Shown in pieces: positions 31,458 through 47,031 of a stretch of 64,000 nucleotides of DNA. The first letter of the stretch is position 1; each line of letters opens with the position of its first letter. Made by a program: the position numbers and the translations under genes. The stretch is from the NCBI GenBank assembly GCA_027490225.1, contig JAIXYK010000006.1, forward strand, positions 1,304 through 65,303. Reading direction: 5' to 3'. Below the pieces are notes generated by a model. That model was given only the letters and a program-made list of their open reading frames with translations. It was not told the DNA's origin and searched no databases. Source of the DNA: Bacteroidota bacterium. Lineage in GTDB: Bacteria > Bacteroidota > Bacteroidia > M30B66.

Positions 31458-34227
31458 TCACCACATTCACCATTCTTCCTGGAACCACAATTACTTTTTT
31501 GGGAGTTGTTCCTTCCAGCCATTTTTCAGCATCTGGATGTTGTAAGGCAAGGGTTTGAACTTCTGTATGCGGCATATCTGCGGCAACATTCAATTGGTAA
31601 CGAACCTTTCCATTAAATGCAACTGGATAAGCAATTGAACTTTCCTTGATAAATGATTCATTGAATTGCGGAAATGCAGCATTAAAAATGGTTTCCTTTT
31701 CTCCAATGGCAGCCCATAATTCCTCTGAAATATGCGGAGCAAACGGTGCGATGGCAATTAACAAATCGCGCAATGCTGATTTATTGCTGCATTTCTCATC
31801 ATTCAACTCATTTACACATATCATAAAAGAACTTACGGAGGTATTGAATGAGAATTTCTCAATGTCTTCCTCAATTTTCTTTAGGGTTTTATGCAGCGTG
31901 CGTAAAGCTTTTTCCGATGCAGGAACATCATTCACTTTTAATGTTCCATTGTCGTTATAAAACATTCGCCATAATTTATTCAAGAAACGGTACACACCTT
32001 CAATTCCATTGGTATTCCAAGGTTTCGATTGTTCCAATGGACCGAGAAACATCTCATACAAACGCAAGGTATCGGCTCCGTATTCGTTAATAATATCGTC
32101 GGGGTTTACTACATTGTATTTGGATTTGGACATTTTTTCGACTTCAACCCCGCACACATAATTGCCTTCTGCATTCAGCACAAACTCAGCTTCGCTATTT
32201 TCGCTTCTGTATTTTTTAAACGCGTTTGTATTCAAAATATCATTCTGCACAATATTCACATCCACATGTAGTTGAACAATTTTTTCATTTTTATAATTAT
32301 CTAATACATCTTTAGAAATGAAGGTATTCGTTCCTACTATTTGGTAAACAAAATTCGATCTCCCCAAAATCATCCCCTGATTTACCAATTTCTTAAATGG
32401 TTCAATTTTAGAAACATGGCCACGGTCGAACAAGAATTTCTGCCAGAAACGGGCGTACAACAAATGCCCTACGGCGTGTTCGGTTCCACCAATGTATAAA
32501 TCTACGTCTTGCCAATAGCTTTCGGCTTCTTTGCCTACAAAAGTTCCATCGTTTTGAGGATCCATATACCTCAGGAAATACCAAGAAGAACCTGCATAAC
32601 CAGGCATGGTGTCGGTTTCGCGTTTTCCATCAGTCGTGTTTACCCACTCTGTTGCTTTTACCAAAGGACTTTCGGGTTTTCCGGTTGGCTTGAAATCTTC
32701 CATCACAGGCAAATGCAATGGCAATTCTACTTCAGAAATGGCGTAAGGCTGGTCGTTTTTGTAAATAATCGGAAATGGTTCGCCCCAGTAACGCTGTCTG
32801 CTAAAACCTGCATCACGCAATCGGAAATTCACTTTACCCATTCCCAAACCTCTTTCTTCGATGGCTACAATGGCTTTCTTCATCGCCTCGTATCCAGTTA
32901 AACCATTCAGAAAATCTGAATTTATCATCTGCGCTTCCTTTGTAGGATTTGCAGCTTCTGAAATGTCAATGTCTTTGTTGATGGGCGTGATGGGTAAATT
33001 GAAATGCTTTGCAAAATCCCAATCGCGCTGGTCACCAGCAGGAACAGCCATTACAGCACCTGTTCCGTATCCAGCTAACACGTAATCTCCAATCCACACT
33101 GGAATTTTATTTCCAGAAAAAGGATGTATCACATAAGCTCCAGTAAATTCACCAGAAATGCGTTTCACATCGGCCATACGTTCGCGTTCGCTTCGGTTTT
33201 TAGCGGTATTGATGTAACTTTCAACCTTGTCTTTACATTCAGCAGTAGTAATTTTTGCAACCAGCTCATGTTCGGGAGCCAAGGTTAAAAAATCAACTCC
33301 AAAAATAGTATCTGGACGTGTAGTAAAAACTTCAATGAATTCTGGATGATTTTCTAATTGAAAACGAATGCTTGCTCCTTCCGATTTTCCAATCCAGTTA
33401 CGCTGCATTTCCTTCATAGAATCGCTCCACTCCAAGGTATTCAAATCGTTGAGCAATCTTTCGGCATAAGCTGTGATGCGCAAAAACCATTGGCGCATTT
33501 GTCTTTTCTCAACTGGAAAGCCTCCACGCTCACTAAACCCATCTTTTACCTCATCATTGGCCAATACAGTTCCTAAACCTTCACACCAGTTTACAGTGCT
33601 GAAAGCTTGATAAGCCAAGCGAAATTGCATTAATACGGTTCTTTGTTTTTCAACTGAGAACTCGTTCCATTGTTGCGCAGTAAAACTCTCAATTTCTTCT
33701 AATTTGGAAGAAATGCCCTCTGTTCCGTTCTTCTCAAAATGTGCAATTAAGGTAGCAATCGGCTGTGCTTTTTGCGCATTTTCGTTGTACCAAGAATCGA
33801 ACAATTGCAGGAAAATCCATTGTGTCCATTTGTAATAATTAGGTTCTGAAGTATTTACTTCACGGCTCCAATCGTAACAAAATCCAATATTGTTAAGCTG
33901 TTCCTTATATCTGGCAATATTTTCTGCGGAAGTATCAGCAGGGTGGCGACCAGTTTGAATGGCGTATTGTTCGGCTGGTAAACCAAATGCATCAAAACCC
34001 ATCGGGTGTAGCACATTAAAGCCCTTCAATCTTTTGTAGCGCGAAACAATATCCGAAGCAATATAACCTAATGGATGGCCCACATGCAAACCCGCACCAG
34101 ACGGATATGGAAACATATCTAAGACATAAAACTTAGGCTTTGTAGTATCAATTTTGGTTTTGTAAACCTGATTTTCTTGCCAGTACTTTTGCCATTTCTG
34201 TTCTATCTCGGTAAAATTGGGTTCCAT
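31453..34227 (-). CDS. leuS: Leucine--tRNA ligase
   Basis: The class I aaRS motifs are present (HVGHPLGY as the HIGH motif and KMSKS). The start was set at MEPNFTEIEQKWQKYWQ (ATG at 34227) rather than the upstream extension. Confidence 0.95.
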   Translation of the reverse strand: MEPNFTEIEQKWQKYWQENQVYKTKIDTTKPKFYVLDMFPYPSGAGLHVGHPLGYIASDIVSRYKRLKGFNVLHPMGFDAFGLPAEQYAIQTGRHPADTSAENIARYKEQLNNIGFCYDWSREVNTSEPNYYKWTQWIFLQLFDSWYNENAQKAQPIATLIAHFEKNGTEGISSKLEEIESFTAQQWNEFSVEKQRTVLMQFRLAYQAFSTVNWCEGLGTVLANDEVKDGFSERGGFPVEKRQMRQWFLRITAYAERLLNDLNTLEWSDSMKEMQRNWIGKSEGASIRFQLENHPEFIEVFTTRPDTIFGVDFLTLAPEHELVAKITTAECKDKVESYINTAKNRSERERMADVKRISGEFTGAYVIHPFSGNKIPVWIGDYVLAGYGTGAVMAVPAGDQRDWDFAKHFNLPITPINKDIDISEAANPTKEAQMINSDFLNGLTGYEAMKKAIVAIEERGLGMGKVNFRLRDAGFSRQRYWGEPFPIIYKNDQPYAISEVELPLHLPVMEDFKPTGKPESPLVKATEWVNTTDGKRETDTMPGYAGSSWYFLRYMDPQNDGTFVGKEAESYWQDVDLYIGGTEHAVGHLLYARFWQKFLFDRGHVSKIEPFKKLVNQGMILGRSNFVYQIVGTNTFISKDVLDNYKNEKIVQLHVDVNIVQNDILNTNAFKKYRSENSEAEFVLNAEGNYVCGVEVEKMSKSKYNVVNPDDIINEYGADTLRLYEMFLGPLEQSKPWNTNGIEGVYRFLNKLWRMFYNDNGTLKVNDVPASEKALRTLHKTLKKIEEDIEKFSFNTSVSSFMICVNELNDEKCSNKSALRDLLIAIAPFAPHISEELWAAIGEKETIFNAAFPQFNESFIKESSIAYPVAFNGKVRYQLNVAADMPHTEVQTLALQHPDAEKWLEGTTPKKVIVVPGRMVNVVI

Positions 34228-34297
34228 GGGTGTTATTAAATTTCGCGCGAAGGTACAAAAAGAGGGGAAAAATGATGTTATATTTGCGCCAATCAAC

Positions 34298-35173
34298 ATG
34301 GCGAATACAGACAGTACATTTAACAAAAGGCGTTTAAGGACATCTTACATTACATCGGTGGTAAGTTTGGCAATGGTTCTTTTTATGCTGGGAATGTTAG
34401 GTCTTTTATTAGTGAATGCTAAAAAGCTATCAGACACTACAAAAGAATCATTTACAGTTTCTATCTTTTTTAAAGATTCTGTGAACGATGCACAAATACT
34501 CGCATTTCAGAATGAATTAAATGCTGCGCCATACACACGTTCTACCGTTTTTACAGATAAAACAACAGCTGCTAAAGAATTTCAAGAGCAACTAGGTGAG
34601 GACTTTGTTGACTTTTTAGGGTACAATCCCCTGCCCGCTTCTATTGATGTAAATTTTAAAACGGATTATACCGACCAAAAGAAATTCAATGAGATTGAAC
34701 AAACTTGGTTACGAAATCCTATGGTAGAAAAGATTGATTATCCTCGAAATCTAATCAACCAGATTGCAGAAAATATGCGTAAATTAAGTTGGTTTTTTCT
34801 GGCTTTTTCAGCAGTTCTGCTTTTCATTGCTGTTACACTTATCAACAACACCATTCGTTTGGCAATATATTCCAAGCGCTTTTTAATTAAAACCATGCAA
34901 TTGGTTGGTGCAAAGAAAAGTTTTATCCGTGCTCCTTTCCTTACTACCAGCTTATTACAAGGCTTTTTGGGAAGTTTGGTTGCCATCGGATTATTGACAG
35001 GCGTTTTAGCATTCGCAGAACATAAAATTCCCGATTTAAAGAGCATTCGCGACATTCAATTGCTTGCTATTCTTGGGGGAGCAATCCTTTTTGCAGGCGT
35101 GTTTTTATCATTTATTTGTACTTTCTTTGCTGTAAGAAAATACCTCAACCTCAACACCGATTCACTTTACTAA
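34298..35173 (+). CDS. ftsX: Cell division protein FtsX-like permease
   Basis: There are four C-terminal TM segments, one N-terminal TM segment and a periplasmic domain. It is syntenic with DUF3098-uppP-truB. The start was set at MANTDSTFNKRRL. Confidence 0.75.
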   Translation: MANTDSTFNKRRLRTSYITSVVSLAMVLFMLGMLGLLLVNAKKLSDTTKESFTVSIFFKDSVNDAQILAFQNELNAAPYTRSTVFTDKTTAAKEFQEQLGEDFVDFLGYNPLPASIDVNFKTDYTDQKKFNEIEQTWLRNPMVEKIDYPRNLINQIAENMRKLSWFFLAFSAVLLFIAVTLINNTIRLAIYSKRFLIKTMQLVGAKKSFIRAPFLTTSLLQGFLGSLVAIGLLTGVLAFAEHKIPDLKSIRDIQLLAILGGAILFAGVFLSFICTFFAVRKYLNLNTDSLY

Positions 35174-35175
35174 TT

Positions 35176-35445
35176 ATGAGTACTGAAAAGAAACAAATTA
35201 CAGGTACCGAAAAGAGCAAAAACACTGAAGGATTTGCATTTGGTCCAATGAATTACCGATTATTGCTTATCGGTGTAGTGGTTATTTTGATTGGTTTTTT
35301 ATTAATGACAGGTGGAGGTTCTGATGATCCAAATGTATTTAATCCAGAAATTTTTAGCACTCAGAGAATCACAGTAGCGCCTATCGTTGTTATGATTGGT
35401 TTTATAATAGAAGTTGCTGCCATTCTTTATAAATCAAAAAAGTAA
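35176..35445 (+). CDS. DUF3098-family small membrane protein
   Basis: The 89-aa ORF has two TM segments. It sits between ftsX and uppP, as in conserved Bacteroidetes synteny. Confidence 0.55.
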   Translation: MSTEKKQITGTEKSKNTEGFAFGPMNYRLLLIGVVVILIGFLLMTGGGSDDPNVFNPEIFSTQRITVAPIVVMIGFIIEVAAILYKSKK

Positions 35446-35451
35446 TTTATA

Positions 35452-36291
35452 ATGACCTGGTTTGAAGCCTTCATCATTGCTGTGGTGGAAGGACTTACAG
35501 AGTTTTTACCCGTTTCTTCTACTGGCCACATGGTCATAGCACAAGCCATTTTAGGCGTAAAATCTGATGAGTTTGTTAAACTATTTACCGTCAATATTCA
35601 GTTTGGAGCCATTCTTTCTGTGTTGGTTTTGTATTGGAAGCGTTTTTTAAAAGACCTTCCCTTTTACTATAAACTTTTAGTAGCTTTTATTCCAGCAGCA
35701 GTTTTTGGATTGTTATTAGGAGATGTGATTGATGCTGCGTTGGAAAGCCCTTTGGTTGTGGCGATTATGCTGGTTTTAGGCGGTATTGTTTTATTGTTTG
35801 TAGATAAATGGTTTCAACACACGCCCAAGCAAGACGATACCGTTTTAGAAAACATCAATGCTTTAACAGACCCAAAAAAAGACGAAGACGACCATTTAAT
35901 AACTTACCCTAAAGCTTTCATAATTGGACTTTTTCAGTGTATCGCATTGATTCCGGGAGTTTCCAGAAGTGCTGCCACAATTATTGGAGGAATGTCACAA
36001 GGTTTAACACGGAAAAACGCAGCTGAATTTTCATTTTTCTTGGCTGTTCCTACAATGGCAGCAGCATCTGGTTACAAATTGCTGAAGGCAATGGATAATT
36101 TCCCTACAGATAAAATCAATATGCTTTTGTTTGGAAATGTGGTGGCTTTTGTGGTCGCACTCTTAGCCATTCGCTTTTTTATAAACTTCCTAACCCGTAA
36201 CGGTTTCAAGATTTTTGGGTACTACCGAATTATTGTAGGCTCAATTATTCTGTTGCTCATGGCTTTGGGAGTTAATCTTTCTATTGTATGA
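35452..36291 (+). CDS. uppP: Undecaprenyl-diphosphatase
   Basis: [16 protein letters not shown] and the [10 protein letters not shown] BacA motif are present. Confidence 0.9.
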
Positions 36292-37004
36292 TTTCTACCC
36301 CTTACCATGAAGGTAAATTATTGTTGTTGAACAAACCTCTTGGCTGGACATCTTTTGATGTGGTAAATAAAGTAAGGTATGCTTTAGAAGGTCATTTCAA
36401 ATTAAAGAGAATGAGCATAAAGGTTGGCCACGCCGGTACATTAGACCCATTGGCAACTGGATTAATGCTCATTTGTACAGGTAAAATGACCAAACAAGTA
36501 GAAGCAATATCAGGTTTGCCAAAAGTGTATACAGGAACCTTTGTTTTAGGAGCAACCACAGCATCTTTCGATTTAGAAAAACCAGTTGATGCAACATTTC
36601 CAACTGCGCATATTACCGAAGAAATGGTAAGAGAAGTTGCTAAGAATTTTATAGGAACCCATTACCAAGAACCACCAGTATTTTCAGCAAAAAGGGTAGA
36701 TGGAGAAAGAGCATATCTTGCTGCAAGACGCGGAGAAGAAATAAAAATGCGCAAAGCTGAAATAGACATTACCGCTTTTGAAATCACGCGCATTGCTTTG
36801 CCGGAAGTAGATTTTAAAGTAAGTTGCTCTAAAGGAACTTACATCAGGTCGCTTGCCCGTGATTTTGGATTGGCTTTACAATCTGGCGGATATTTATCAA
36901 AACTAGAAAGGACAGAAATTGGGCAATATTTATTGGTAAATGCTCAGACTGTAGACGATTTAATAAAAGATATTAGGGAAACGCCTTTGGCGGCAACTGA
37001 GTAA
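36288..37004 (+). CDS. truB: tRNA pseudouridine(55) synthase
   Basis: [17 protein letters not shown] is the catalytic Asp motif. The protein is 238 aa. Confidence 0.9.
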
Positions 37005-37040
37005 AATAAAAAAGCCGCAACATTTTGAAATGCTGCGGCT
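37001..37040. repeat. 40-bp direct repeat copy 1: intrinsic terminator hairpin GCCGCAACATTTTGAAATGCTGCGGC after truB
   Basis: gtaaaataaaaaagccgcaacattttgaaatgctgcggct is identical over 40 of 40 nt to 43019-43058. Confidence 0.9.
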
Positions 37041-37530
37041 GTAGAGATTTAAAACGCATTTATTATTTGCAGTAGAATCAATTGAATAATTAAATACTCT
37101 AGAAGTATATTTCTCCGATATGGTTTTTTTATTAATATAAATGTTCTAAAATAAAGATTTTTTAGGAAAATAAATCAAAAACAATAAGCCCTAAGGTAAG
37201 CCATTTTACTCAATAGTAATATTACTAAATCTAATTACGAACAAATTGATAACAATTGTCATAATTTGAATTATATTAGCTAGAATTGAAACATATTTGG
37301 AAGTGCACAACCAGTATAAAATTAAATCTTGGATTTCTTATTATAAATCGTACTTAAAACTTTTAAACATGAAAAAAATTAATCAATCATTGATACATTT
37401 TTTTGAATGTATCAATCAAAGTCAGCTTATTAATGTGTTTAGTGATTACCGTATTAACCTAGATCTCAAAAAAACCATTTCCAAATTTTCTATTAGCCCC
37501 AAGTTATGGGGGTGGGGGGTAATTAATTAC

Positions 37531-40500
37531 ATGTCAATGAATTATGTATTCTTGTTTATGCTACTTATAGTTAGCTTAACTGGATTTACACAAAATACTT
37601 GTTCTAATGCTCAGTTACCAAATACTCAGATTGTAAATACAACTAGCGATTATTGGTTTTTGAAACTACAAAGCTCTAAGCTTCGTGTTAAATACAATAA
37701 TACCAATAGGTTCAATAGATTATACCTATATAGCGATTGTAACACAAAGTTAGATTCAATCATAGGACAAGATTCTAGCAATTTCACTATTTACGACATT
37801 CCCAATGTAAGCAACGCAAACTTATGTCGGCTCTCTAATCCAAATAGTTTGCAACAATCTTTTCAAATTGCTGCACCGCAAACCTGTGAGCACTTTATTT
37901 ATGTTACTACACCAATCAGCGCTTCGGGGAACGGCTATTATTGTGTTACAAACCCAATAACATTAAGATTTTCTTGCGATGATGAAATTGAATTACAAAA
38001 TGGAACAGCGGGTCGAGTGCATTGGTTCATAACAGGGCCAAATGGCTTTTCAACTGAAATAGAATTTACTTCGCCTTCTGCTCCTAATTATCCACTAACC
38101 TATACATTTCCAGTTGCGGGTAGCTATATTATAGATTTTGCGTATGATGTTTATAATTATGTTACGGGGCAATGGGTAATTGCACAGATTCCAAATCAAA
38201 ATCCTTTTGTATTAAATTTAGCCGCTCCCCTTCCTCCTTTTAGTTTATCAGCGAGCGATTTAAATCCTTGCCCAGGTGAATTGGTTACTTTATCTGCAAA
38301 TTTGCCTACAGGAGTAACACCTCCTAATGTTAATATTTGTTGGAATCCGGGCGAAGAAAACTTCCCAGCAAATTGGCCGTTTAATATAGCTTGTACTCAA
38401 CTATATAACAACCAGCCCCAAACAATTCCGAACTTAATTTATGATAACTTTCCACATACAACTACTGTTACTTTCGATAACGGATGTATAGTCGAAAAAA
38501 CAATTACAGTAACTCCCAAAACTAACTTCGTAAACTTGCAAGCAATTAAATATTGTGGGTACAAGATAAAATACCAAGCAAATTTTACGGATTGTGCTTC
38601 TCCTAACTTCACCTATAATTGGTCTTTTCCTGGTGGAATCCCAAGCAATTCTACTGCTGTTTCTCCAATGGTTACTTATTCCAATAGTAACAGTTATTCT
38701 GCATCATTAACAATAACCAGCACATTAAATGGTTATCAATATGGTCCTTTCATAATTAACAATGTGGTTCCAACTTTGAATCTTACAACACAACCGCCAC
38801 CTCCTTTGGTTGCTATAAATGGAGTATTAGCCAATCAAAATCTATTGGAATGCAATGCTAACAATAATATTTTTAATATTACGAATGCAACAAGTTTTCC
38901 AGGTTATACTTATACCCTTTCTAATGTTACAGGAGGGAATTATTTAGCCGGAGGAGGAATATCTTGGGTAGTGCAATGGGACAATAACCCTAACACATTG
39001 AGTAGTTTCATTATAAATTCTACTTCTCCGGAAGGGTGCATAAGCACTCAACTTGTAAGATTTTTTCCTTGTTGTGGTTCTATGCAAACTTCAGAATTAA
39101 TTAATGGCGGTAACATTTCTACATGGTTAGCAGCTAATGGTATAACCAATGGAGTAGTAAATACTGGCAACAACGAACTTTTTATTAATGGGACTGTAAA
39201 TATTGACCAAGATGTTACCTTCCTTGGATGTCAGAATATATTAATGGGTGTAAATGCCAAACTTGATATTCAAAACAATAAACAATTAAGTATTGATAAT
39301 TCTACCCTAAAGGCTTGTGGTCAAGAACTTTGGGATGGAATTTATGCAGACAACCCATCAGAAAAAATCATTGTAAATAACTCGAATCTTTATGATGCAA
39401 AAACTGCTTTAAATATTAGTTCAAATGCTGATTACGATGTAAACGGTGGTAGATTTTATGACAATTGGGTAGGCATTTCATTCGCAGGTATGACCACACA
39501 AAGCACAACGGTAAGAAGTTCTATCTTTAGAACTACCAATATTATGAAAAGATCAGTAGGACAACCTTTGTTGTTAACGCATATAACATATCAAGGAGAT
39601 TTTAGTCCACAAAACAAAGGAACTGGAATTTACATGAGAAGTTGCATTGGCACTCAAATTGGCGATGGTACTTCTAGTAACTTAAGAAACGAGTTCAACG
39701 ATTTAAACTGTGGCATCTTTGGGTCTGCCTCCGATGCATTTGTTTACAACAACAAGTTTATAAACATAAACAATACCCTTCCACTCAATTATACTTTTTA
39801 CACACCAACAGCTATATATTTAAGATCTTGGTTTCAGCCTGAAACTCCACGTAACATGTTAATTGGCTCAGAATTAGAAAACCATGACAACGAATTTACC
39901 AATTGTACTTGGGGAATCTATGCCTTTGAATCAATGCGAGGAACAATTGCTGGAAATCAGTTTAATAACAATAACATTGGAATTTATTGGCAATTAAGCA
40001 GGGGTGGTAAAAATGTTATAGAATCGAACGAGATGAACTCTCAAAGCAAATATGGCATTTATTTAAACAACAACCCGAATAGCACTTTTAATGTAAAATC
40101 AAATAAAGTAACCTGCGTGCAAAATTCATCTACTTACATTAACACCTATGGAATTTTTGCATCAACAGGTACTATTAGTCAAGTACAAAATTACTATATT
40201 ACAAACAATGATGTAAACGATGCAAGTATTGGTATTAAGGTAAGTGGAACTCGTTCACCTAAAGTAAACCAAAACAGAGTAAGTAATTTTCCAGCCTCTT
40301 CTATAAGTGTATTAAATTATGAAATTGCAGGTATTCAGATAACCGCCTGTAGACAGCCTCAAATATTCGAAAACTTAGTACTTGGAAACGATGCTTTTAA
40401 TCCCAAAGTAAAAGGAATTGAAATTCAAGAATGTACCCGCCCTATATTGAGTTGTGACAGCGTAGTTACCTGCGGTTGGGCTTATGCCATTAGAGGTGCA

Positions 40501-41658
40501 AACACAAATACGTTTATTAAGAACTGCAGCGCTGGCAATAGTTTGTATGGTTATGTGTATTACAATGGTGGCTTAACAGGCCCAATAGGTGGGGGCACAA
40601 GTAATTTTGTAGAAGGCAACAAATGGTGGAACATTGCTGCAGGTCATACACTTACTACAAACCTAGGGGGAGGAGTTCCAACAAATGGTTCATTGAGCCC
40701 CTGGTTCTTACCAGGCACAAACCCTGATAATTCGGAAAATCCTAATCCGAATATGTTAAATGCTATCGGCTCTGGCTCTAATCAACTTTCAATTCAACAA
40801 TTGAATAATTTTAACTACCCAAACACTCCTTGCCAAGAAATAAATTATCCGTTTTACAGATTGATGCAAGAAAAAGAATGGCTCTATAAAGTAAAAAATG
40901 ACAGTGCGTTTATGAATGGCTTTGATGAAAATACAAAGTATTACTTAAAGGAGCAGGCTTTTGAAAGCTTGGTAGATGATTCCGCATATTGGGAATTTGA
41001 TGTAGAATTTGCAGCTTACTTAGATCAGCTAAAATTAGGAAATAGTGGTACTTTTGAAGCTGTAGCCAGCAGAGTAGATGCATCTGCTTATCTAAGTGCT
41101 GGAGTTAAGGAAGAATTAGATACGTTATTGGCTACCGTTTTACCTGTAAGGGTGCAAGAAAGTAATTTGGCCGCAGTGTTGAATATGTATCTAAACTCTT
41201 ATGCTATTGGCATAGATAGTTTTAATATTATCGATTTGTTATTTCTACAGAATATTGCCCAAACCTGCTATTTTCAAGGAGGTAAAGCCGTATTACTTGC
41301 TCGAAGCATGTTGAGTTCTTTACCAAACGCTTTACCTACAGAATATGCAGACAATTGTATTGCGCAATATGGCATGCAAAAAATAGGAAGTACAGCAGTT
41401 GATAGCAGCCTAAGATCGAATAAAACAATTCTTATTTACCCTAGCCCTATTCAGAAAGGAACAAATTTATTAATTGATAATGCAGAAGGTTACACATTGC
41501 AACTAAGTAACTTAATGGGGATAAGGCTGTTAGAAGAAACAATAAGAAACAACAAAGATGCTGTTGTGCTTCCAAGCAATATTGCAGCAGGTTTGTATAT
41601 CATTAAACTTACTTCTAACTTTGGAGAAACTAAAACACAGAAAATAATAATTCAATAA
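37531..41658 (+). CDS. Large secreted parallel beta-helix repeat / PKD-domain protein with a T9SS type-A C-terminal sorting domain
   Basis: The start was set at MSMNYVFLFMLLIVSLTGFTQ, a signal peptide; the upstream ORF extension from 37297 has no signal peptide and is AT-rich. A PKD-like segment is NFTYNWSFPGG...SASLTITS. Many PbH1-type beta-helix rungs follow (NNSNLYDAKTALNIS, GNQFNNNNIGIYW, SNEMNSQSKYGIYLNNN...). The C-terminus ILIYPSPIQKGTNLLI...AAGLYIIKLTSNFGETKTQKIIIQ matches Por_Secre_tail. Confidence 0.7.
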   Translation: MSMNYVFLFMLLIVSLTGFTQNTCSNAQLPNTQIVNTTSDYWFLKLQSSKLRVKYNNTNRFNRLYLYSDCNTKLDSIIGQDSSNFTIYDIPNVSNANLCRLSNPNSLQQSFQIAAPQTCEHFIYVTTPISASGNGYYCVTNPITLRFSCDDEIELQNGTAGRVHWFITGPNGFSTEIEFTSPSAPNYPLTYTFPVAGSYIIDFAYDVYNYVTGQWVIAQIPNQNPFVLNLAAPLPPFSLSASDLNPCPGELVTLSANLPTGVTPPNVNICWNPGEENFPANWPFNIACTQLYNNQPQTIPNLIYDNFPHTTTVTFDNGCIVEKTITVTPKTNFVNLQAIKYCGYKIKYQANFTDCASPNFTYNWSFPGGIPSNSTAVSPMVTYSNSNSYSASLTITSTLNGYQYGPFIINNVVPTLNLTTQPPPPLVAINGVLANQNLLECNANNNIFNITNATSFPGYTYTLSNVTGGNYLAGGGISWVVQWDNNPNTLSSFIINSTSPEGCISTQLVRFFPCCGSMQTSELINGGNISTWLAANGITNGVVNTGNNELFINGTVNIDQDVTFLGCQNILMGVNAKLDIQNNKQLSIDNSTLKACGQELWDGIYADNPSEKIIVNNSNLYDAKTALNISSNADYDVNGGRFYDNWVGISFAGMTTQSTTVRSSIFRTTNIMKRSVGQPLLLTHITYQGDFSPQNKGTGIYMRSCIGTQIGDGTSSNLRNEFNDLNCGIFGSASDAFVYNNKFININNTLPLNYTFYTPTAIYLRSWFQPETPRNMLIGSELENHDNEFTNCTWGIYAFESMRGTIAGNQFNNNNIGIYWQLSRGGKNVIESNEMNSQSKYGIYLNNNPNSTFNVKSNKVTCVQNSSTYINTYGIFASTGTISQVQNYYITNNDVNDASIGIKVSGTRSPKVNQNRVSNFPASSISVLNYEIAGIQITACRQPQIFENLVLGNDAFNPKVKGIEIQECTRPILSCDSVVTCGWAYAIRGANTNTFIKNCSAGNSLYGYVYYNGGLTGPIGGGTSNFVEGNKWWNIAAGHTLTTNLGGGVPTNGSLSPWFLPGTNPDNSENPNPNMLNAIGSGSNQLSIQQLNNFNYPNTPCQEINYPFYRLMQEKEWLYKVKNDSAFMNGFDENTKYYLKEQAFESLVDDSAYWEFDVEFAAYLDQLKLGNSGTFEAVASRVDASAYLSAGVKEELDTLLATVLPVRVQESNLAAVLNMYLNSYAIGIDSFNIIDLLFLQNIAQTCYFQGGKAVLLARSMLSSLPNALPTEYADNCIAQYGMQKIGSTAVDSSLRSNKTILIYPSPIQKGTNLLIDNAEGYTLQLSNLMGIRLLEETIRNNKDAVVLPSNIAAGLYIIKLTSNFGETKTQKIIIQ

Positions 41659-41664
41659 TCTTAA

Positions 41665-42939
41665 ATGCTAAGAACCTTCTTAGTTCTACTATGCTTAACC
41701 ACTTGCTGGGCTGCCAAAGCCCAGCAAGTGGCTTTGCGTATTAGTAATGGCAGTTTTGAAGAATTTAGTATAACTAACCCTTTTAATCAAAATCTTTTTT
41801 TTTTCTATGATAATAACTATTCAGACACCTTGTTAAATTGGTATAGCCGAGGATGGGGGGTTGCTATGGAGGATGGAAACTGTCTTGACAATGATAATTC
41901 ATTCGATAGTCCTGACACTGCTATAAAACCAGTTACTGGTAATTTTTATATTCATTTTTCATCTCATGTTAACTTACCTGCAATATGGGATACAGATTTC
42001 CCCAACTATATTATTGGAGGTTTCGGCCAAAAAACATTATGTTCATTTATAAAAGATGTAAAGTACAAAATTAGTTTTTATAGCAGTTATGATACAACAC
42101 TAAATTTTCAATTTGTAGAAAATGGAGTTTGTCAACTAGTCCCTAAAAAATTTAGAAAACCTAAATTAAGCGTATTTTTAGGGAATAAAGAGGTTGGTAC
42201 AAGTTTTTTTAATTGGTTTAATAATACTAGTGCATCATATCAAATAATACTTAATGAATATCAAGTATCCTATAAAACATGGCAAAAAATTGATATAGAA
42301 TTTACCCCAAATGATGATTATGAGTACATATACTTTAACAACATAACAAGTGACGTGACTCTACAATCAGCTTCAAATTCTGTTTTGAAAGTTTATGGAG
42401 CAATATTGTTAGACGCCGTTAGCGATATTTATTATGCAGAGCCAACATATATATTACCGACTGTTGACACATTAGAATCAGGCAGTTGCTACACATTTTC
42501 ACCTAATAACATTCACCCATATACAACTTCTCATCGCTGGGCTATTTTGGGAGATTCTATTTTTTCAACCGAAGCAACGCCTTCAGTTTGCCCCACAGTA
42601 ACAACCACTTACGTTGTATTAAGCAATGACAACTGCGGTTGGGCCGAAAGTGATACTATTACCATTGTTGTAAAACCTAAATTGGAACCACCAGCAATAC
42701 CAGAAGATTTTTTCAATGCTTACGCTAACAATGCTTTTGCTAATCAACAACTAAACATTAATAGTAGCCAGAGCGGCACCCTATTTTTATTTGACGCTGC
42801 TGGAAGACTTATTGGTTCCTTCCAGTTTCCAAAAGGAGATAGTACGCTGCCACTCCAACTTGCCGCAGGTGTTTATATGTTTGATGCCAAACTTGCTAAC
42901 GGGCAAAATAAGAATGATAAGGTTATTATGATAAAATAG
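41665..42939 (+). CDS. Secreted protein with a CHU_C-type Ig-like module and a T9SS C-terminal domain, co-oriented with the upstream beta-helix gene across a 6-nt gap
   Basis: There is a signal peptide (MLRTFLVLLCLTTCWAAKAQQ). The Ig-like module is GSCYTFSPNN...TTTYVVLSNDNCGWAESDTITIVV. The C-terminus GTLFLFDAAGRLIGSFQFP...AGVYMFDAKL...KVIMIK is CTD-like. Confidence 0.6.
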   Translation: MLRTFLVLLCLTTCWAAKAQQVALRISNGSFEEFSITNPFNQNLFFFYDNNYSDTLLNWYSRGWGVAMEDGNCLDNDNSFDSPDTAIKPVTGNFYIHFSSHVNLPAIWDTDFPNYIIGGFGQKTLCSFIKDVKYKISFYSSYDTTLNFQFVENGVCQLVPKKFRKPKLSVFLGNKEVGTSFFNWFNNTSASYQIILNEYQVSYKTWQKIDIEFTPNDDYEYIYFNNITSDVTLQSASNSVLKVYGAILLDAVSDIYYAEPTYILPTVDTLESGSCYTFSPNNIHPYTTSHRWAILGDSIFSTEATPSVCPTVTTTYVVLSNDNCGWAESDTITIVVKPKLEPPAIPEDFFNAYANNAFANQQLNINSSQSGTLFLFDAAGRLIGSFQFPKGDSTLPLQLAAGVYMFDAKLANGQNKNDKVIMIK

Positions 42940-43018
42940 CAGATTTATCTTCTATAATTAGCTTCTTTTATTTTTAATTTAAGCTAATTGAGGGAATCTA
43001 ATTTAGTAGGAAAATCCT

Positions 43019-43058
43019 GTAAAATAAAAAAGCCGCAACATTTTGAAATGCTGCGGCT
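43019..43058. repeat. 40-bp direct repeat copy 2, acting as a bidirectional terminator 3' of atpG
   Basis: Identical to 37001-37040. It lies 22 nt after the atpG stop on the minus strand. Confidence 0.9.
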
Positions 43059-43079
43059 TCTGCTGAAAATCTAAATTTT

Positions 43080-43967
43080 CTACCCATTCAAAGCTTCTGC
43101 TCCGCCTACAATCTCCAAAATTTCATTGGTAATTGCCGCTTGACGTGCTTTATTGTAGGATAATTTCAATTCTTTAATCAAGTCTTTTGCATTGTCTGTT
43201 GCTTTATTCATGGCCGTCATACGTGCACCATGTTCTGCAGCATGAGAATCTAACAATGCTTTGTAAAACTGAACCTTTAATGATTTTGGAATTAATTCCG
43301 TAACAATAGTAGCTTGGTTAGGTTCGAAAATATAATCAGTTGATACCGCCTTTTTTGCATTCTTAGGCAACTCGTTAGGAAGTACAGGAAGAAACTGCTC
43401 TTCTGTTGGAATCTGCACAGCCGCGTTTTTAAACTGGTTGTAAACAAGTTCTACCCTATCGAATTCTTTATTTACGAAGCCATCCATAATTCTTTGAACC
43501 ACTGGAGTTGCAAGGGAGAATGTAAGTTTATCAAATAACTCATTATGAGAACTTAATAAATTCAACTTGTTTTTTGTGATATAATCAGTTGCCTTTTTCC
43601 CTACTGTAATAAATGAAACGTTGCCTGAATTAAATTGGTTTGCATACTTTTCTGTAGTAAGTTGGCGTACAATTTTCAATACATTGGTATTGAACGCTCC
43701 AGCCAAACCTCTGTTAGAAGTTATTGCAACAATTAAAACTTTTTTGGGCTCACGCTGAACTGAATAAGCACCTCCTTCGCTTGCATCAACACTTCCACTT
43801 AAGTTACCCAAAATATCGCGCAACTTTTCTGCATATGGTCGCATTTGAACAATTGCATCTTGTGCACGGCGCAACTTAGCTGCCGATACCATTTTCATAG
43901 CACTGGTAATTTGTTGCGTAGATGTTACTGATACAATCCTATTACGGACTTCTTTTAAATTCGCCAT
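43080..43967 (-). CDS. atpG: ATP synthase F1 gamma subunit
   Basis: MANLKEVRNRIVSVTSTQQITSAMKMVSAAKLRRAQ is present, and the protein is 295 aa. Confidence 0.95.
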   Translation of the reverse strand: MANLKEVRNRIVSVTSTQQITSAMKMVSAAKLRRAQDAIVQMRPYAEKLRDILGNLSGSVDASEGGAYSVQREPKKVLIVAITSNRGLAGAFNTNVLKIVRQLTTEKYANQFNSGNVSFITVGKKATDYITKNKLNLLSSHNELFDKLTFSLATPVVQRIMDGFVNKEFDRVELVYNQFKNAAVQIPTEEQFLPVLPNELPKNAKKAVSTDYIFEPNQATIVTELIPKSLKVQFYKALLDSHAAEHGARMTAMNKATDNAKDLIKELKLSYNKARQAAITNEILEIVGGAEALNG

Positions 43968-43996
43968 TTATGACCTTTTTTTAAAGGATAAATAAA

Positions 43997-45580
43997 TTAT
44001 TTAGTTGCGTAACGAGATGAAATATCGCGTGCTACTTTTTCTAAAACATCAGTTAATTCGTCCGTAAATTTTCCTGCTTTTAAGGAATTCATTACATCTT
44101 TATGAGAAGTGTTCAACATTGCTAAGTAATCAGCTTCAAACTCCTTCACTTTATTAACAGGAACTGCACGCATCAAACCTTTAACACCTGCATAAATAAT
44201 TGCAACTTGATCTTCCACTTTAAATGGAGAATACTGAGGTTGTTTTAAGATTTCAACGTTACGTGAACCTTTATCTAATACCGATTTTGTAGCAGCATCT
44301 AAGTCTGAACCAAATTTCGCGAAAGCTTCTAATTCGCGGTATTGTGCTTGGTCAAGTTTTAATGTACCAGCAACTTTCTTCATAGATTTAATTTGCGCGT
44401 TACCACCAACACGAGATACAGAAATACCCACGTTAATTGCTGGACGAACACCAGAGTTAAATAAGTTTGACTCTAAGAAAATCTGACCATCTGTGATAGA
44501 AATTACGTTAGTCGGAATATATGCAGAAACGTCGCCCGCTTGTGTTTCAATAATTGGTAATGCCGTTAAAGAACCACCACCTTTTACTTTACCTTTCAAT
44601 GAATCTGGTAAATCGTTCATTTGTTGAGCAATTTCGTCTGAAGCATTGATTTTTGCCGCACGCTCTAGTAATCTGCTGTGTAAGTAGAAAACGTCACCAG
44701 GATACGCCTCACGTCCTGGTGGACGACGTAACAGCAAAGAAACCTCACGGTAAGCTACTGCTTGTTTCGACAAATCATCATAGATAATTAATGCCGGACG
44801 ACCAGTATCGCGGAAAAATTCACCAATTGCAACTCCTGCGAATGGCGCATAGAACTGCATTGGAGCTGGGTCAGAAGCTGTTGCAGAAACAATAACTGTG
44901 TAAGCCATTGCTCCGTTTTCTTCTAGCGTTTTTACAATGTTTGCAACTGTAGAACCTTTTTGTCCGATTGCAACATATATACAGAATACAGGTTGACCTG
45001 CATCATAAAATTCTTTTTGATTGATAATAGTATCGATACAAACGGCAGTTTTACCAGTTTGACGGTCACCGATAACCAACTCACGCTGGCCACGACCAAT
45101 TGGAATCATCGCATCAATCGCTTTGATACCTGTTTGAAGAGGTTCAGTAACTGGTTGGCGGTAAATTACACCCGGTGCTTTTCTTTCGAAAGGCATTTCG
45201 ATTAATTCGCCAGTGATTGGGCCTTTACCATCAATTGGTTCTCCTTTGGTATTTACAACACGACCAAGAAGACCTTCGCCTACCTGAAGAGAAGCAATAC
45301 GACGTGTACGTTTTGCAATATCACCTTCTTTAATGCTGTTAGAACTTCCTAACAATACTGCACCTACATTGTCTTCTTCTAAGTTCAAAACGATGCCTTG
45401 CAATCCATTAGAAAATTCAATTAATTCTCCAGATTGAACGTTGTTTAGTCCATAAATACGGGCAATACCGTCGCCCACTTGGAGCACTGTACCTACTTCT
45501 TCTAATTGTGAATCAGAAGTAAAACCCGATAATTGTTGTTTTAAAATTGCAGTAACTTCTGCTGGTTTAATTTCAGCCAT
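43997..45580 (-). CDS. atpA: ATP synthase F1 alpha subunit
   Basis: The Walker A motif GDRQTGKTA and overall alpha-subunit conservation across 527 aa. Confidence 0.95.
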
Positions 45581-45619
45581 GATGTTGTTTTATGGTTGTG
45601 TGGAAATTTCCACGGTGAA

Positions 45620-46177
45620 TCAATAATCTTTAACGTATAAGTTTTTTTCAAATTCGCGTCTCAACAAATTGATGTCTCGTTCTACACTTGTATCAATTTG
45701 CTTATTAGAAAAACGTAAGATAAAACCTCCAATAACTGAAGGATCAACTATTTCTTCTAATTGCACAGTGTGATTGCTATGTTTTGCAACAATTGCAATA
45801 ATTTGTTTTCTAAATGCTTCGTCAATTTTATATGCAGTAGTTAATTGTGCTTCTTCAATTCCATTATTTTCTAGGTGAAGAATTACAAATTGACGTGCAA
45901 TTTGAGCAACATACATTTCTCTTCTCTTTTTAACGATAAGGTCAAGAAATGCAGCACTTGTAGCAGAAATATTACTTGTAAAGACAGCTTTTAAAATAGC
46001 TTCTTTTTTATCAGAATGAATAATAGGGCTTTGAAGCAAAACGGCAAGGTCACGGTTCTCATTGATGGTTTTATCAATCAACTCCATGTCTTTACTAACT
46101 ACCTCGAGTTCTTTGCGTTCTACGGCCAAATTAAACAATGCCCGTGCATAGCGTATCGCAGCTTTTGTTTCCTGCAT
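45620..46177 (-). CDS. atpH: ATP synthase F1 delta subunit (OSCP)
   Basis: The 185-aa protein lies between atpF and atpA, and the AIRYARALF N-terminus is typical. Confidence 0.85.
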   Translation of the reverse strand: MQETKAAIRYARALFNLAVERKELEVVSKDMELIDKTINENRDLAVLLQSPIIHSDKKEAILKAVFTSNISATSAAFLDLIVKKRREMYVAQIARQFVILHLENNGIEEAQLTTAYKIDEAFRKQIIAIVAKHSNHTVQLEEIVDPSVIGGFILRFSNKQIDTSVERDINLLRREFEKNLYVKDY

Positions 46178-46183
46178 GGTTTC

Positions 46184-46678
46184 TTAGTTCAATTTTAAAT
46201 CAGCAATCAATTTATTCGAAAGCTCTTTTTGTTTCTCGTCAGAAGAAAGATTTTGCTTCACCAATTTTTCAGCAATTTCTAAAGACAAAATAGCTACTTG
46301 ATTTTTCAATTCAGTGATAGCAGCCAATTTCTCATTTTTAATTGCTTCGCGGGCAATAGAAATAATTCTTTCTGCTTCTTCTGTAGCTTTAGTGCGTGCT
46401 TCACTTACAATCATTTCTTTTGCTTCTCTTGCAGATTTCAATAAAGCATCACGCTCTAGCTGTGCATCACGCAAAAGTTGCTCATTGTTTGATTGCAACT
46501 TAGCCATTTCTTTCTTTGCATTTTCAGCACTACTTAAAGCGTTTTCAATAGATTGTTCGCGCTCTTTGATGGCATTCATGATTGGCTTCCATGCAAATTT
46601 GCTCAATAAGAACAACACCGTTAAAAAGGTGAGGGTCATCCAAAATACAAGACCAATTTCTGGGGTAATTAAATTCAT
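46184..46678 (-). CDS. atpF: ATP synthase F0 B subunit
   Basis: A single N-terminal TM segment is followed by a long charged coiled coil. The position in the operon fits. Confidence 0.85.
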   Translation of the reverse strand: MNLITPEIGLVFWMTLTFLTVLFLLSKFAWKPIMNAIKEREQSIENALSSAENAKKEMAKLQSNNEQLLRDAQLERDALLKSAREAKEMIVSEARTKATEEAERIISIAREAIKNEKLAAITELKNQVAILSLEIAEKLVKQNLSSDEKQKELSNKLIADLKLN

Positions 46679-46764
46679 GTTGAAATAGAATTGAGATTTT
46701 TTTTCGTTTAACTAGTAAACCTGTCGAGCCGCCAACCGCATTTCGACAGGTTTAAGAATTTGAA

Positions 46765-47031
<267 letters not shown>

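What the first reader, a model, noticed from the sequence alone, without database searches (positions are those of the whole stretch)
37001..43058. ~6-kb insertion between convergent truB and atpG, bounded by perfect 40-bp direct repeats of the terminator hairpin
The 40-mer gtaaaataaaaaagccgcaacattttgaaatgctgcggct occurs twice with 100% identity. One copy is at 37001-37040, overlapping the truB stop. The other is at 43019-43058, just 3' of atpG. Each copy holds the complete GCCGCAACATTTTGAAATGCTGCGGC hairpin, so a single ancestral bidirectional truB/atpG terminator appears to have been duplicated around a 5978-bp insert. The insert consists of a ~490-bp AT-rich leader with no ORF, a 1375-aa parallel beta-helix/PKD T9SS cargo gene, and, 6 nt later, a 424-aa T9SS cargo gene. 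No integrase, transposase or tRNA target is present, so the acquisition mechanism is unclear. Possibilities include homology-mediated capture at the terminator or a site-specific event. The pair may be a strain-specific surface or adhesion module.
Basis: seen in the sequence. Interest (0 to 1): 0.8.

Follow-up and report, generated by a model that had tools for sequence, protein, structure and literature searches.

The report
Surface-protein gene cassette inserted into a terminator
A 6-kb pair of genes for secreted surface proteins was inserted between two housekeeping genes of an uncultured Bacteroidota bacterium, copying a 40-base terminator to both sides; close relatives still have the uninterrupted site, so this is a real but fairly ordinary strain-specific islet whose way of insertion is unknown.

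Summary
The 40-mer occurs exactly twice, at 37001-37040 and 43019-43058, and nowhere else in the window. The predicted empty site exists. Three related metagenome contigs (87-95% identical in the flanks) carry bacA-truB-[one 40-mer]-atpG-atpA, and the window's two flanks abut on that single copy. Two more contigs look empty from gene coordinates alone. Filled sites were seen only in strains at least 97% identical, so a gain in this lineage is the most parsimonious reading. The hairpin is not REP-like. It is the atp operon's intrinsic terminator, strong on the minus strand only.

The insert holds no recombinase and has no terminal inverted repeats. It carries a leader and two genes of very rare families, both probably type IX secretion (T9SS) cargo. 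The same gene pair sits at four or more other chromosomal sites in distant Bacteroidota. At one of them it is again flanked by a duplication: 70 nt, 90% identical, made from the 3' end of the convergent neighbour mqnE.

My reading is a non-autonomous two-gene cassette that inserts with a long duplication of its target. How it inserts is not resolved. I favour a single crossover of a circular form over insertion at a staggered break. Interest is moderate.

The parts
36288..37004 (+). truB, the left flanking core gene. Its last 4 nt (G TAA) lie inside the left repeat. This allele has a 1-nt deletion immediately before the repeat, giving 238 aa against 240 aa in relatives.
   Evidence: Pfam TruB_N 3.4e-46; junction alignment A3
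37001..37040 (.). Left copy of the 40-bp direct repeat. It holds the truB stop, an A-tract and the hairpin at 37014-37039.
   Evidence: folds and terminator scan
37041..37530 (+). AT-rich leader (24.9% GC) with no credible ORF and no Rfam match. It contains a G5TG6 tract at 37508-37519 just upstream of the ATG at 37531. It is not conserved with the leaders of the homologous cassettes.
37531..41658 (+). Large secreted protein of 1375 aa (alternative starts at 37369 and 37297). It has a signal-like N-terminus, a PKD-like region, a right-handed beta-helix and a C-terminal segment that aligns with the T9SS type A sorting domains of its homologues.
   Evidence: Pfam Beta_helix 5.9e-07 and PKD 0.0018; full-length alignment with 4 homologues at 41-56% identity; Por_Secre_tail detected in 2 of 5 family members
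41665..42939 (+). 424-aa secreted protein of a very rare family. It has a signal peptide, a beta-sandwich region, an Ig-like domain and a T9SS type A sorting domain.
   Evidence: TIGR04183 21.1 bits against a cutoff of 23; 7 of 9 family members match PF18962; only 10 clusters found among 5.8 billion and 2 full-length representatives among 1.84 billion; AF2 model pLDDT 66 with only domain-level MAM/Ig/FN-like matches
42940..43018 (+). 79-nt spacer between the cassette's last stop codon and the right repeat. The last 53 nt are identical in a strain that is 97-98% related (L012/L013).
43019..43058 (.). Right copy of the 40-bp direct repeat, with the hairpin at 43032-43057. It is the functional atp operon terminator on the minus strand.
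43080..43967 (-). atpG, the right flanking core gene and last gene of the atp operon, convergent with truB and with the cassette.
   Evidence: Pfam ATP-synt 2.1e-100; operon layout in L007

Best explanation
This is a strain-variable, non-autonomous two-gene cassette. It consists of a leader, a 1375-aa beta-helix/PKD protein gene and a 424-aa protein gene, and both proteins are probably exported by the type IX secretion system. It was inserted into the 58-bp spacer between the convergent core genes truB and atpG in the recent ancestry of this strain.

The insertion duplicated 40 bp of the target, namely the truB stop codon plus the atp operon's intrinsic terminator. As a result truB keeps its stop, the atp operon keeps its terminator, and the right copy also lies at the end of the cassette.

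Shown here: the insertion, the duplication of a pre-existing single sequence, presence/absence polymorphism among close relatives, the absence of any recombinase or terminal inverted repeat, and the portability of the gene pair, including a second case with a long duplication of the target's 3' end.

Inferred, at about 0.4: the cassette entered as a circular molecule that already carried one copy of the target and recombined with the chromosomal copy by a single reciprocal (Campbell-type) crossover. The enzyme would be either RecA or a recombinase encoded elsewhere. The same repeats would then allow precise loss and re-circularisation.

Also inferred: once present, the cassette spreads among relatives by ordinary homologous recombination in truB and the atp operon.
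For: Empty sites. A scan for the hairpin core in metagenome contigs returned three loci, and all of them are bacA-truB-[one 40-mer]-atpG-atpA. Window 33461-37040 and 43019-46905 both align to L096 and overlap there by exactly the 40-mer (3849-3888). Alignment A3 shows the left flank following truB, the right flank following atpG, and the 40-mer 100% conserved.

Gene coordinates of two contigs whose DNA could not be fetched also fit an empty site. In ERZ21845800 the identical 238-aa TruB is followed by a minus-strand gene starting 58 nt after the end of truB, exactly where atpG's stop would lie in an empty site. In 3300059473 the identical AtpG is followed by a 240-aa TruB after a 53-nt gap.

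Polarity. The filled state occurs in the window strain (100% identical in many samples) and in L012/L013 (97.3-98% identical). The 95%/91% relative (L096=L098) and the 90%/87% relative (L097) are both empty.

Foreign look. The insert has the most deviant tetranucleotide usage of all 6-kb windows, 0.0197 against 0.0109 +/- 0.0018.

No mobility genes in the insert or in the 64 kb, and no terminal inverted repeats.

Portability. The pair is conserved together (large protein 41-56% identical, small protein 44-58%) next to different genes in L104-106, L107, L109-112, L114 and L116.

Second duplication. In L104 and L106 the pair is flanked by a 70-nt repeat of 90% identity (E 5e-23). The right copy is the last 24 codons of the convergent mqnE, and the left copy is still an open 22-codon version with its own stop.
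Against: No circular junction, recombinase or donor has been seen. The two duplicated targets (40 nt and 70 nt) share no obvious core, and the cassettes share no conserved non-coding ends. That argues against a sequence-specific recombinase and leaves open how the first copy of the target got onto a circle.

Forty base pairs is near the lower limit for RecA-dependent recombination (my own knowledge, not tested here).

L107, which has adequate flanks, shows no flanking repeat. L109 shows only a doubtful 21-nt match. L114 has only 221 nt of left flank and shows nothing. Long duplications are therefore documented in 2 of about 3 testable cases.

Gain versus loss rests on parsimony over few lineages. 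The tetranucleotide deviation could simply reflect the unusual amino-acid composition of large secreted proteins.
Confidence: 0.7

Rival explanations
1. Illegitimate insertion with a true target-site duplication. Linear foreign DNA was joined at a staggered break, or by replication template switching at the hairpin. Fill-in then duplicated 40 bp here and 70 bp at mqnE. Selection kept only events that left both convergent neighbours with intact 3' ends.
For: The duplication length varies (40 and 70 nt), the targets share no core, the cassettes share no conserved ends, and no recombinase is present. Both sites are very short spacers between convergent genes, where only a duplicating insertion would be harmless.
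Against: I know of no bacterial precedent for target duplications of 40-70 bp made this way. There is no microhomology at the junctions beyond the repeat itself. The left mqnE copy in L104 still reads as an intact alternative C-terminus, including a synonymous AGC/TCG serine switch. That fits a second allele somewhat better than a decaying duplicate, though the case rests on only 7 differences.
Confidence: 0.3
2. The cassette is ancestral at this locus, and the empty sites in relatives are independent precise deletions by recombination between the two 40-bp repeats.
For: Perfect 40-bp direct repeats can mediate precise deletion. At least one apparently empty contig encodes the identical 238-aa TruB allele, which carries the 1-nt deletion typical of the filled lineage. 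Secondary loss is therefore plausible within the lineage.
Against: It needs at least two or three independent identical deletions, in L096/98, in L097 and in the near-identical strains. It still needs an earlier duplicating insertion to create the repeats. The repeats are 100% identical while the flanks of the empty relatives differ by 5-13%. No homologue of the small protein closer than 72% was found anywhere, so the relatives do not seem to hold the cassette elsewhere.
Confidence: 0.12
3. It is the decayed remnant of a larger integrative element (a CIME-like island). attL and attR survive as the 40-bp repeats, and the integrase and transfer genes were lost.
For: Long perfect direct repeats at the 3' end of a gene are the usual signature of att sites. 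The hairpin has the geometry of a recombinase core, with inverted arms around a short spacer. CIMEs are defined as elements that have lost their integration and transfer genes but kept attL and attR (PMC5704250).
Against: Exactly the same two genes, and nothing else, lie between the repeats at two independent sites, the window and L104. That would require the same decay to happen twice. There is no pseudogene or other remnant in the 490-nt leader or the 79-nt spacer. No related sequence was found in the phage, plasmid or viral collections.
Confidence: 0.1
4. The arrangement is an assembly artefact, or the repeat is a generic repeated terminator. In the first case a 6,018-bp circular molecule sharing the 40-mer was unrolled into the chromosome by the assembler. 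In the second the 40-mer is a common REP-like element that flanks the genes by chance.
For: Contigs built with k=31 all break 30 nt into the repeat, and the insert assembles as a separate 6,038-nt contig (L099) bounded by 30 nt of repeat at each end. A graph loop would produce the same picture.
Against: Independent assemblies cross both junctions. L002 joins truB, the 40-mer and 297 nt of leader. L012 (ENA) and L013 (JGI) join 53-58 nt of the insert end, the 40-mer and atpG. The window itself appears to come from a 65-kb NCBI contig. The hairpin occurs once per 145-153 kb related contig and nowhere else in the window or the scanned collections.
Confidence: 0.03

Closest known systems
Cis-mobilizable elements (CIMEs) and other integrase-less islands flanked by att direct repeats (definition in PMC5704250)
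   Same: A short block of cargo genes lies at the 3' end of a conserved gene. It is bounded by direct repeats made from the target's end, it carries no integration or transfer genes of its own, and it is present or absent among close strains.
   Different: No cognate ICE, IME or integrase is known for this site. The same two-gene cargo, and nothing else, lies between the repeats at two unrelated targets. The repeats are an operon terminator in one case and an mqnE 3' end in the other, not a tRNA or another classical att site.
Minimal mobile elements of Neisseria (Saunders and Snyder 2002, as cited and used in PMC1797815 and PMC3787668)
   Same: One to three accessory genes, often affecting the cell surface, sit between conserved flanking genes. 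They have no mobility genes and are presumably exchanged by homologous recombination in the flanks.
   Different: In PMC1797815 these elements are described as alternative unique loci at syntenic positions, and to my knowledge flanking repeats are not part of their definition. Here only an empty and a filled state were seen, and the insert is bracketed by a 40-bp target duplication. Natural transformation in this organism is unknown.
Campbell-type (insertion-duplication) integration of a circular DNA by a single crossover (textbook mechanism; my own knowledge)
   Same: It produces exactly this topology: the inserted DNA is flanked by two direct copies of the shared sequence, and the event is reversible by recombination between the copies.
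   Different: The shared segment here is only 40 bp. No circular form and no route by which the circle first acquired the target have been observed.
Flexible genomic islets encoding surface proteins in environmental bacteria (general concept; my own knowledge)
   Same: It is a strain-specific block of secreted or surface proteins of atypical composition in an otherwise syntenic core region. Presence/absence polymorphism occurs at more than 97% identity.
   Different: It is unusually small and cleanly delimited, with a perfect duplication of a terminator.
Integron gene cassettes and Xer/dif-dependent elements (IMEX, pdif modules) (my own knowledge)
   Same: These are cargo units without their own recombinase, bounded by imperfect palindromes and moved by an enzyme encoded elsewhere.
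   Different: There is no intI in the window, no attI/attC organisation, and the cassette has its own long leader. The palindrome is a terminator that occurs once at this locus in the related contigs, not a dif or attC family site.

Membership tests
Intrinsic (Rho-independent) terminator | G+C-rich stem-loop directly followed by a U tract, placed just downstream of a stop codon | tested here: met
   On the minus strand both copies have a 12-15 bp stem followed by UUUUUUAUUUU, 21 nt after the atpG stop. dG is -18.6 and -24 kcal/mol, z -4.6 and -6.2.
Intrinsic (Rho-independent) terminator | Bidirectional function, with a U tract on both strands | tested here: not met
   On the plus strand the stem has an A.C mismatch and is followed by GUAGAG (left copy) or UCUGCUG (right copy), with no U tract.
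T9SS type A sorting-domain cargo (Por_Secre_tail, PF18962 / TIGR04183) | C-terminal sorting domain detected by the family model: 424-aa protein | tested here: inconclusive
   TIGR04183 scores 21.1 bits against a cutoff of 23, and there is no Pfam hit for this copy. Seven of 9 family members match PF18962, and the C-terminus is conserved in the alignment.
T9SS type A sorting-domain cargo (Por_Secre_tail, PF18962 / TIGR04183) | C-terminal sorting domain detected by the family model: 1375-aa protein | tested here: inconclusive
   There is no hit for the window copy even at E up to 1. Two of 5 aligned homologues match PF18962 (best 1.4e-05), and the last ~80 residues align well.
T9SS type A sorting-domain cargo (Por_Secre_tail, PF18962 / TIGR04183) | The host has a type IX secretion system | tested here: inconclusive
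   Other clear cargo is in the window: PF18962 at 30559-31401 (3.8e-13) and CHU_C at 23926-27855 (1.1e-17). No T9SS machinery genes lie in the window.
Integrative element (ICE, IME or prophage-type island) | Integrase or recombinase gene inside the element | tested here: not met
   The insert holds only two ORFs, neither recombinase-like. The small ORFs in the leader are negligible. No recombinase was found among the ORFs of at least 150 aa that were scanned or matched to annotated contigs.
Integrative element (ICE, IME or prophage-type island) | Direct repeats (attL/attR) derived from the target, and an empty attB in relatives | tested here: met
   Perfect 40-bp repeats here, and a single copy in L096, L097 and L098.
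Integrative element (ICE, IME or prophage-type island) | Excised circular form with an attP junction | not testable with these tools
   This needs raw reads or PCR. The predicted junction is ...GGAAAATCCT-[40-mer]-GTAGAGATTT...
Cis-mobilizable element (CIME) | Derived from an ICE or IME whose integrase recognises the flanking att sites | not testable with these tools
   No related ICE or IME was found. No hits in phages, plasmids or viral contigs.
Insertion sequence, transposon or MITE | Transposase, terminal inverted repeats and a short (2-15 bp) target duplication | tested here: not met
   There is no transposase. The insert ends carry no terminal inverted repeat; the only long pair is the hairpin itself. 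The duplication is 40 bp.
REP/BIME-like repeated extragenic palindrome | Many dispersed copies per genome | tested here: not met
   There are two copies in 64 kb, both at this locus. Related contigs of 153 kb and 145 kb each have one copy. The scanned metagenome collection holds only 3 matching stretches and the viral contigs none. The complete genome was not available.
Minimal mobile element (Neisseria type) | Conserved flanking genes, with no mobility genes in the insert | tested here: met
Minimal mobile element (Neisseria type) | Alternative unrelated cassettes at the same site in different strains | tested here: inconclusive
   Only empty and filled states were seen. L012 and L013 both stop 53 nt into the insert, and L012 continues with 5 unmatched bases, which hints at a variant but proves nothing.
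Integron gene cassette | intI and attI platform, with a promoterless ORF followed by attC | tested here: not met
   No integrase in the window. The cassette has a 490-nt leader and two genes, and the two palindromes are identical copies of the local terminator. No attC covariance model was run.

The most novel reading that the evidence does not exclude
The gene pair is a new kind of non-autonomous mobile cassette of Bacteroidota. It would encode only two T9SS surface proteins, carry no conserved ends, and insert repeatedly at the extreme 3' ends or terminators of convergent housekeeping genes, duplicating 40-70 bp of the target each time. The mechanism would be trans-acting or host-encoded and not yet described. 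One candidate is a structure-directed recombinase acting on terminator-like palindromes. Another is a homology-dependent excision and reintegration cycle through the duplicated target.
Probability: 0.2. Interest if true: 0.7.

Novelty: new member of a known kind. Interest (0 to 1): 0.45.

Why it matters
This is a clean natural example of how a bacterium can gain surface-protein genes inside a 58-bp gap between two essential operons without damaging either. The shared stop-and-terminator segment is duplicated, so each side keeps its own copy.

It also documents presence/absence variation of a secreted-protein pair among nearly identical strains of an uncultured Bacteroidota lineage. Variation of this kind is usually linked to phage or grazer pressure and to attachment.

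The long target duplication recurs at a second, unrelated site. If that reflects a dedicated mechanism, it would point to a way of moving cargo genes that needs no element-encoded recombinase. If it does not, this is one more small flexible islet. In practical terms, the truB/atpG terminator is shown to tolerate a 6-kb insertion.

Tried and rejected
- Genome collection scan with TruB. The 80 best loci are only 53-59% identical, and none has atpG within 10 kb of truB. No close genome was retrieved, and the truB/atpG adjacency is specific to this lineage.
- Logan contigs built with k=31 for truB, atpG and the cassette. All break 30 nt into the repeat, so they cannot distinguish filled from empty.
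- Two apparently empty contigs (ERZ21845800 and 3300059473) had no retrievable DNA. Only their gene coordinates could be used.
- Word-index search with the 1375-aa protein. It found only the protein itself plus local PKD matches. Its true homologues were reached only through the neighbours of the small protein.
- Terminal inverted repeats of the insert: none.
- Conserved leader or trailer among the five cassette versions: none. The only match is a short one around an upstream ATGAAAAAA.
- Flanking repeats at L107, L109 and L114. None is convincing, and the flanks of L109 and L114 are short.
- Rfam on the whole window: only one tRNA-Ala, 13 kb away.
- Phage, plasmid and viral collections with the small protein and with the hairpin: nothing.
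- Cluster look-up of the L104 MqnE, to find its native C-terminus in relatives: the cluster contains only that protein.
- Structure of the 424-aa protein. The AF2 model has pLDDT 66, and Foldseek gives only low-TM, domain-level resemblance to MAM/Ig/FN adhesin-like ectodomains. That fits a surface binding protein but is not diagnostic.
- A CTnDOT-type target motif (GTANNTTTGC, recalled from memory) was looked for by eye near the junctions and not seen. This was not a formal test.

Full report
**Observation**

The 40-mer GTAAAATAAAAAAGCCGCAACATTTTGAAATGCTGCGGCT is present twice without a mismatch, at 37001-37040 and 43019-43058. No third copy appears with up to three mismatches, and none is expected by chance. 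A looser search for the stem arms finds only the same two places.

The left copy begins one base before the truB stop codon (truB 36288-37004). The right copy ends 21 nt before the stop of atpG (43080-43967, minus strand). Between the copies lie 5978 nt:
- a 490-nt leader of 25% GC without a credible ORF or Rfam match;
- a large ORF of 1375 aa, counted from the ATG at 37531;
- six bases later, a 424-aa ORF;
- a 79-nt spacer.

**The hairpin**

Folded as RNA, the minus strand gives a perfect 12-15 bp stem followed by UUUUUUAUUUU (dG -18.6 and -24 kcal/mol, z -4.6 and -6.2). The pattern scan calls both copies as minus-strand terminators. On the plus strand the stem carries an A.C mismatch and no U tract follows. 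The element is thus the intrinsic terminator of the atp operon, and it happens to overlap the end of truB. It is not a symmetric bidirectional terminator.

**Empty sites**

A scan of the metagenome contig collection for the 24-nt hairpin core returned three stretches only. All three are the predicted empty site: bacA-truB-[one 40-mer]-atpG-atpA.
- In L096, which comes from a 153-kb contig, window 33461-37040 and window 43019-46905 both align and overlap by exactly the 40-mer (L096 3849-3888).
- L098, from a 145-kb contig, is identical to L096 over the 6.9 kb they share.
- L097 is a more distant relative.

In the junction alignment the sequence left of the single 40-mer follows the truB side of the window and the sequence right of it follows the atpG side. 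The 40-mer itself is 100% conserved although the flanks differ by 5-13%.

Two further contigs whose DNA could not be fetched fit the empty site through their gene coordinates. ERZ21845800 encodes the identical 238-aa TruB, followed by a minus-strand gene that starts 58 nt after the end of truB. That is precisely where the atpG stop would fall in an empty site (43080 - 6018 - 37004 = 58). In the filled window the corresponding triplet is not a stop. JGI 3300059473 encodes the identical AtpG, followed after 53 nt by a 240-aa TruB.

Relatives have a 240-aa TruB. The window allele has lost one A immediately before the repeat and ends two codons earlier.

**Gain or loss**

The window strain is 100% identical in flanks and insert across many sequencing runs. 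A second filled strain, L012=L013, is 97.3-98% identical in atpG/atpA and shares the last 53 nt of the insert. Its right repeat carries one G-to-A change. The relatives at 95%/91% (L096/98) and 90%/87% (L097) are empty.

One gain in the ancestor of the clade that is at least 97% identical is the most parsimonious history. Loss by recombination between the repeats may explain the empty contig with the identical TruB allele.

The insert is also the most deviant 6-kb stretch of the window in tetranucleotide usage, 0.0197 against 0.0109 +/- 0.0018. The composition of large secreted proteins may contribute to that.

**Not a repeated element, not an artefact**

The hairpin occurs once in each of two related contigs of about 150 kb, only at this locus in the window, and not in viral contigs. 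The metagenome collection is not exhaustive. L013 is a JGI contig that contains the core but was not returned by the scan.

Contigs built with k=31 break 30 nt into the repeat, and the insert forms its own 6,038-nt contig, L099. A graph loop would look the same. However, L002 crosses the left junction, the ENA and JGI assemblies L012 and L013 cross the right one, and the window itself appears to come from a 65-kb NCBI contig.

**The cargo**

The large protein has a hydrophobic signal-like N-terminus, a weak PKD match and a right-handed beta-helix (Pfam 5.9e-07). The small protein reaches 21.1 bits on TIGR04183, whose cutoff is 23.

Homologues of the small protein are extremely rare. There are ten clusters among 5.8 billion, and two full-length representatives among 1.84 billion. 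Seven of nine family members match Por_Secre_tail.

In every contig with enough sequence, the small gene is preceded by a homologue of the large one. These homologues align over their full length at 41-56% identity. One version lacks the N-terminal ~490 residues, and two of five match Por_Secre_tail. Both proteins are therefore probable T9SS cargo. The window also holds other clear T9SS cargo.

An AlphaFold model of the small protein is of modest quality (pLDDT 66). It resembles MAM/Ig/FN-type adhesin ectodomains only at domain level.

**Portability and a second duplication**

The pair lies next to different genes in each lineage:
- between a GxxExxY gene and convergent mqnE in L104-106;
- beside a LuxE-like gene and a 172-aa gene in L107 (that pair's homologues sit at 7752-9296 in the window, next to a collagen-like gene);
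- before a PD-(D/E)XK gene in L109-112;
- convergent with an FAA-hydrolase operon in L114.

In L104 and L106 the pair is again bracketed by a direct repeat: 70 nt, 90% identical, at L104 7101-7170 and 11284-11353 (E 5e-23). The right copy encodes the last 24 residues of MqnE, KIPIERDTLYGIVRNYSEEELVES*. The left copy still reads KIPIERDTLNGIVKNYSEEELV*. The differences include a synonymous TAC/TAT change and an AGC/TCG serine switch.

L107 shows no such repeat, and L109 and L114 have too little flank to judge. Leaders and trailers of the cassettes are not conserved, and the insert has no terminal inverted repeats.

**Mobility genes**

None is present in the insert. Among the window's ORFs of at least 150 aa that I scanned against Pfam or matched to annotated contigs, all recognisable ones are housekeeping, signalling or secreted-protein genes. 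The only tRNA gene is 13 kb away. The small protein and the hairpin have no match in the phage, plasmid or viral collections.

**Interpretation**

Shown:
- a two-gene cassette was inserted into a 58-bp convergent spacer with duplication of a 40-bp target, so both neighbours keep their 3' ends;
- the site is polymorphic among close relatives;
- the cassette has no recombinase;
- the same pair has moved to other loci, once with a comparable duplication of the neighbour's 3' end.

Inferred: how it gets in. The topology is that of a single reciprocal crossover between the chromosomal target and a circular molecule carrying a copy of it. The enzyme could be RecA or a recombinase encoded elsewhere. 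This is the usual origin of long perfect repeats at the 3' ends of genes, and I give it about 0.4.

The main rival, at about 0.3, is an illegitimate insertion at a staggered break or by template switching at the hairpin, with selection for events that spare both neighbours. It copes better with the different repeat lengths and the lack of any shared core or conserved ends. I know of no bacterial precedent for duplications this long made that way.

The remaining readings are less likely:
- ancestral presence with repeated precise deletions, about 0.12;
- a twice-decayed integrative element, about 0.1;
- an artefact or a generic repeat, about 0.03.

**Comparison with known systems**

Descriptively the closest systems are cis-mobilizable elements, defined as having lost their integration and transfer genes while keeping attL and attR (PMC5704250), and the minimal mobile elements of Neisseria, which are small accessory loci at syntenic positions (PMC1797815, PMC3787668). 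Neither membership can be established. No cognate integrase or parent element is known, and no alternative cassette has been seen at this site. Transposon, REP-like and integron memberships fail on features that were tested.

**Verdict**

This is a real and correctly described strain-specific islet. It is a new member of a known kind, not a new kind of system. One feature is worth following up: the same cargo pair is twice bracketed by long duplications of its target's 3' end without any recombinase of its own.

Noticed in passing
window 36995-37001 (boundary of the left repeat): The window's truB lacks one A present in all three empty-site relatives (ACTGAAGTAAAATAA becomes ACTGAGTAAAATAA). 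This shortens TruB from 240 to 238 aa. The deletion lies exactly at the outer edge of the left repeat, so it could be a scar of the insertion or a coincidence.
   Followed up: partly
window 37508-37519: A G5TG6 tract lies 11 nt upstream of the ATG at 37531 of the large gene. It falls inside the ORF if the upstream start at 37369 is used. The leader of the homologous cassette in L114 has a C7 tract. Homopolymer tracts before surface-protein genes can cause phase variation. No length variants were seen among the identical contigs.
   Followed up: no
L012 1686-1743 and L013 1445-1497 (window 42966-43018): Two contigs from different assemblies of a 97-98% related strain both end at the same point, 53 nt into the insert. 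L012 continues with 5 bases that do not match the window. This suggests a branch point, possibly a different cassette allele sharing only the last 53 nt and the repeat.
   Followed up: partly
L113 1-30 and 1424-1453: The contig carrying the 72% homologue of the small protein begins and ends with the same 30-mer. The 1,423-nt unit (last ~146 nt of the large gene plus the small gene) therefore forms a cycle in the k=31 graph. It is probably a tandem duplication of that unit in that genome.
   Followed up: no
L104 6257-6416 and 6920-7076: Arrays of 20-70-nt direct repeats (core CACAGATAAGCACAGATTT and its complement) flank a GxxExxY / PDDEXK_3 gene (6552-6893, TIGR04256 5.5e-39). This lies immediately upstream of the left mqnE repeat copy. 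It may be another small selfish element next to the cassette.
   Followed up: no
window 6326-7624 (minus strand) and L107 3956-10429: A collagen triple-helix repeat protein gene (Pfam 2.2e-12), containing a 25-nt palindrome at 7171-7206, sits downstream of the 175-aa / LuxE-like gene pair. In L107 the homologous pair (56% and 48% identity) is followed instead by the beta-helix/424-aa cassette. The two genomes thus have different surface-protein genes downstream of the same gene pair.
   Followed up: partly
window 23729-27855: A tRNA-Ala(GGC) gene is followed by a 1309-aa DUF7948 / beta-propeller / PKD protein with a CHU_C (type B) T9SS sorting domain. A further small Por_Secre_tail protein lies at 30559-31401, next to a serpin gene (29335-30516, from the gene table for L001).
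   Followed up: no
window 56136-58232 (minus strand): Adjacent genes encode a histidine-specific methyltransferase (Methyltransf_33, 5e-95) and a DinB_2 + FGE-sulfatase protein. As far as I recall this is the EgtD/EgtB pair of ergothioneine biosynthesis.
   Followed up: no
window 41686-41744: A 27-nt inverted repeat, 81% complementary with a 5-nt loop, lies inside the signal-peptide coding region of the 424-aa gene, 28 nt after the stop of the large gene.
   Followed up: no
whole window compared with loci L016-L095: The best TruB and BacA matches among the species-representative genomes retrieved are only 59% and 61% identical.
   Followed up: partly
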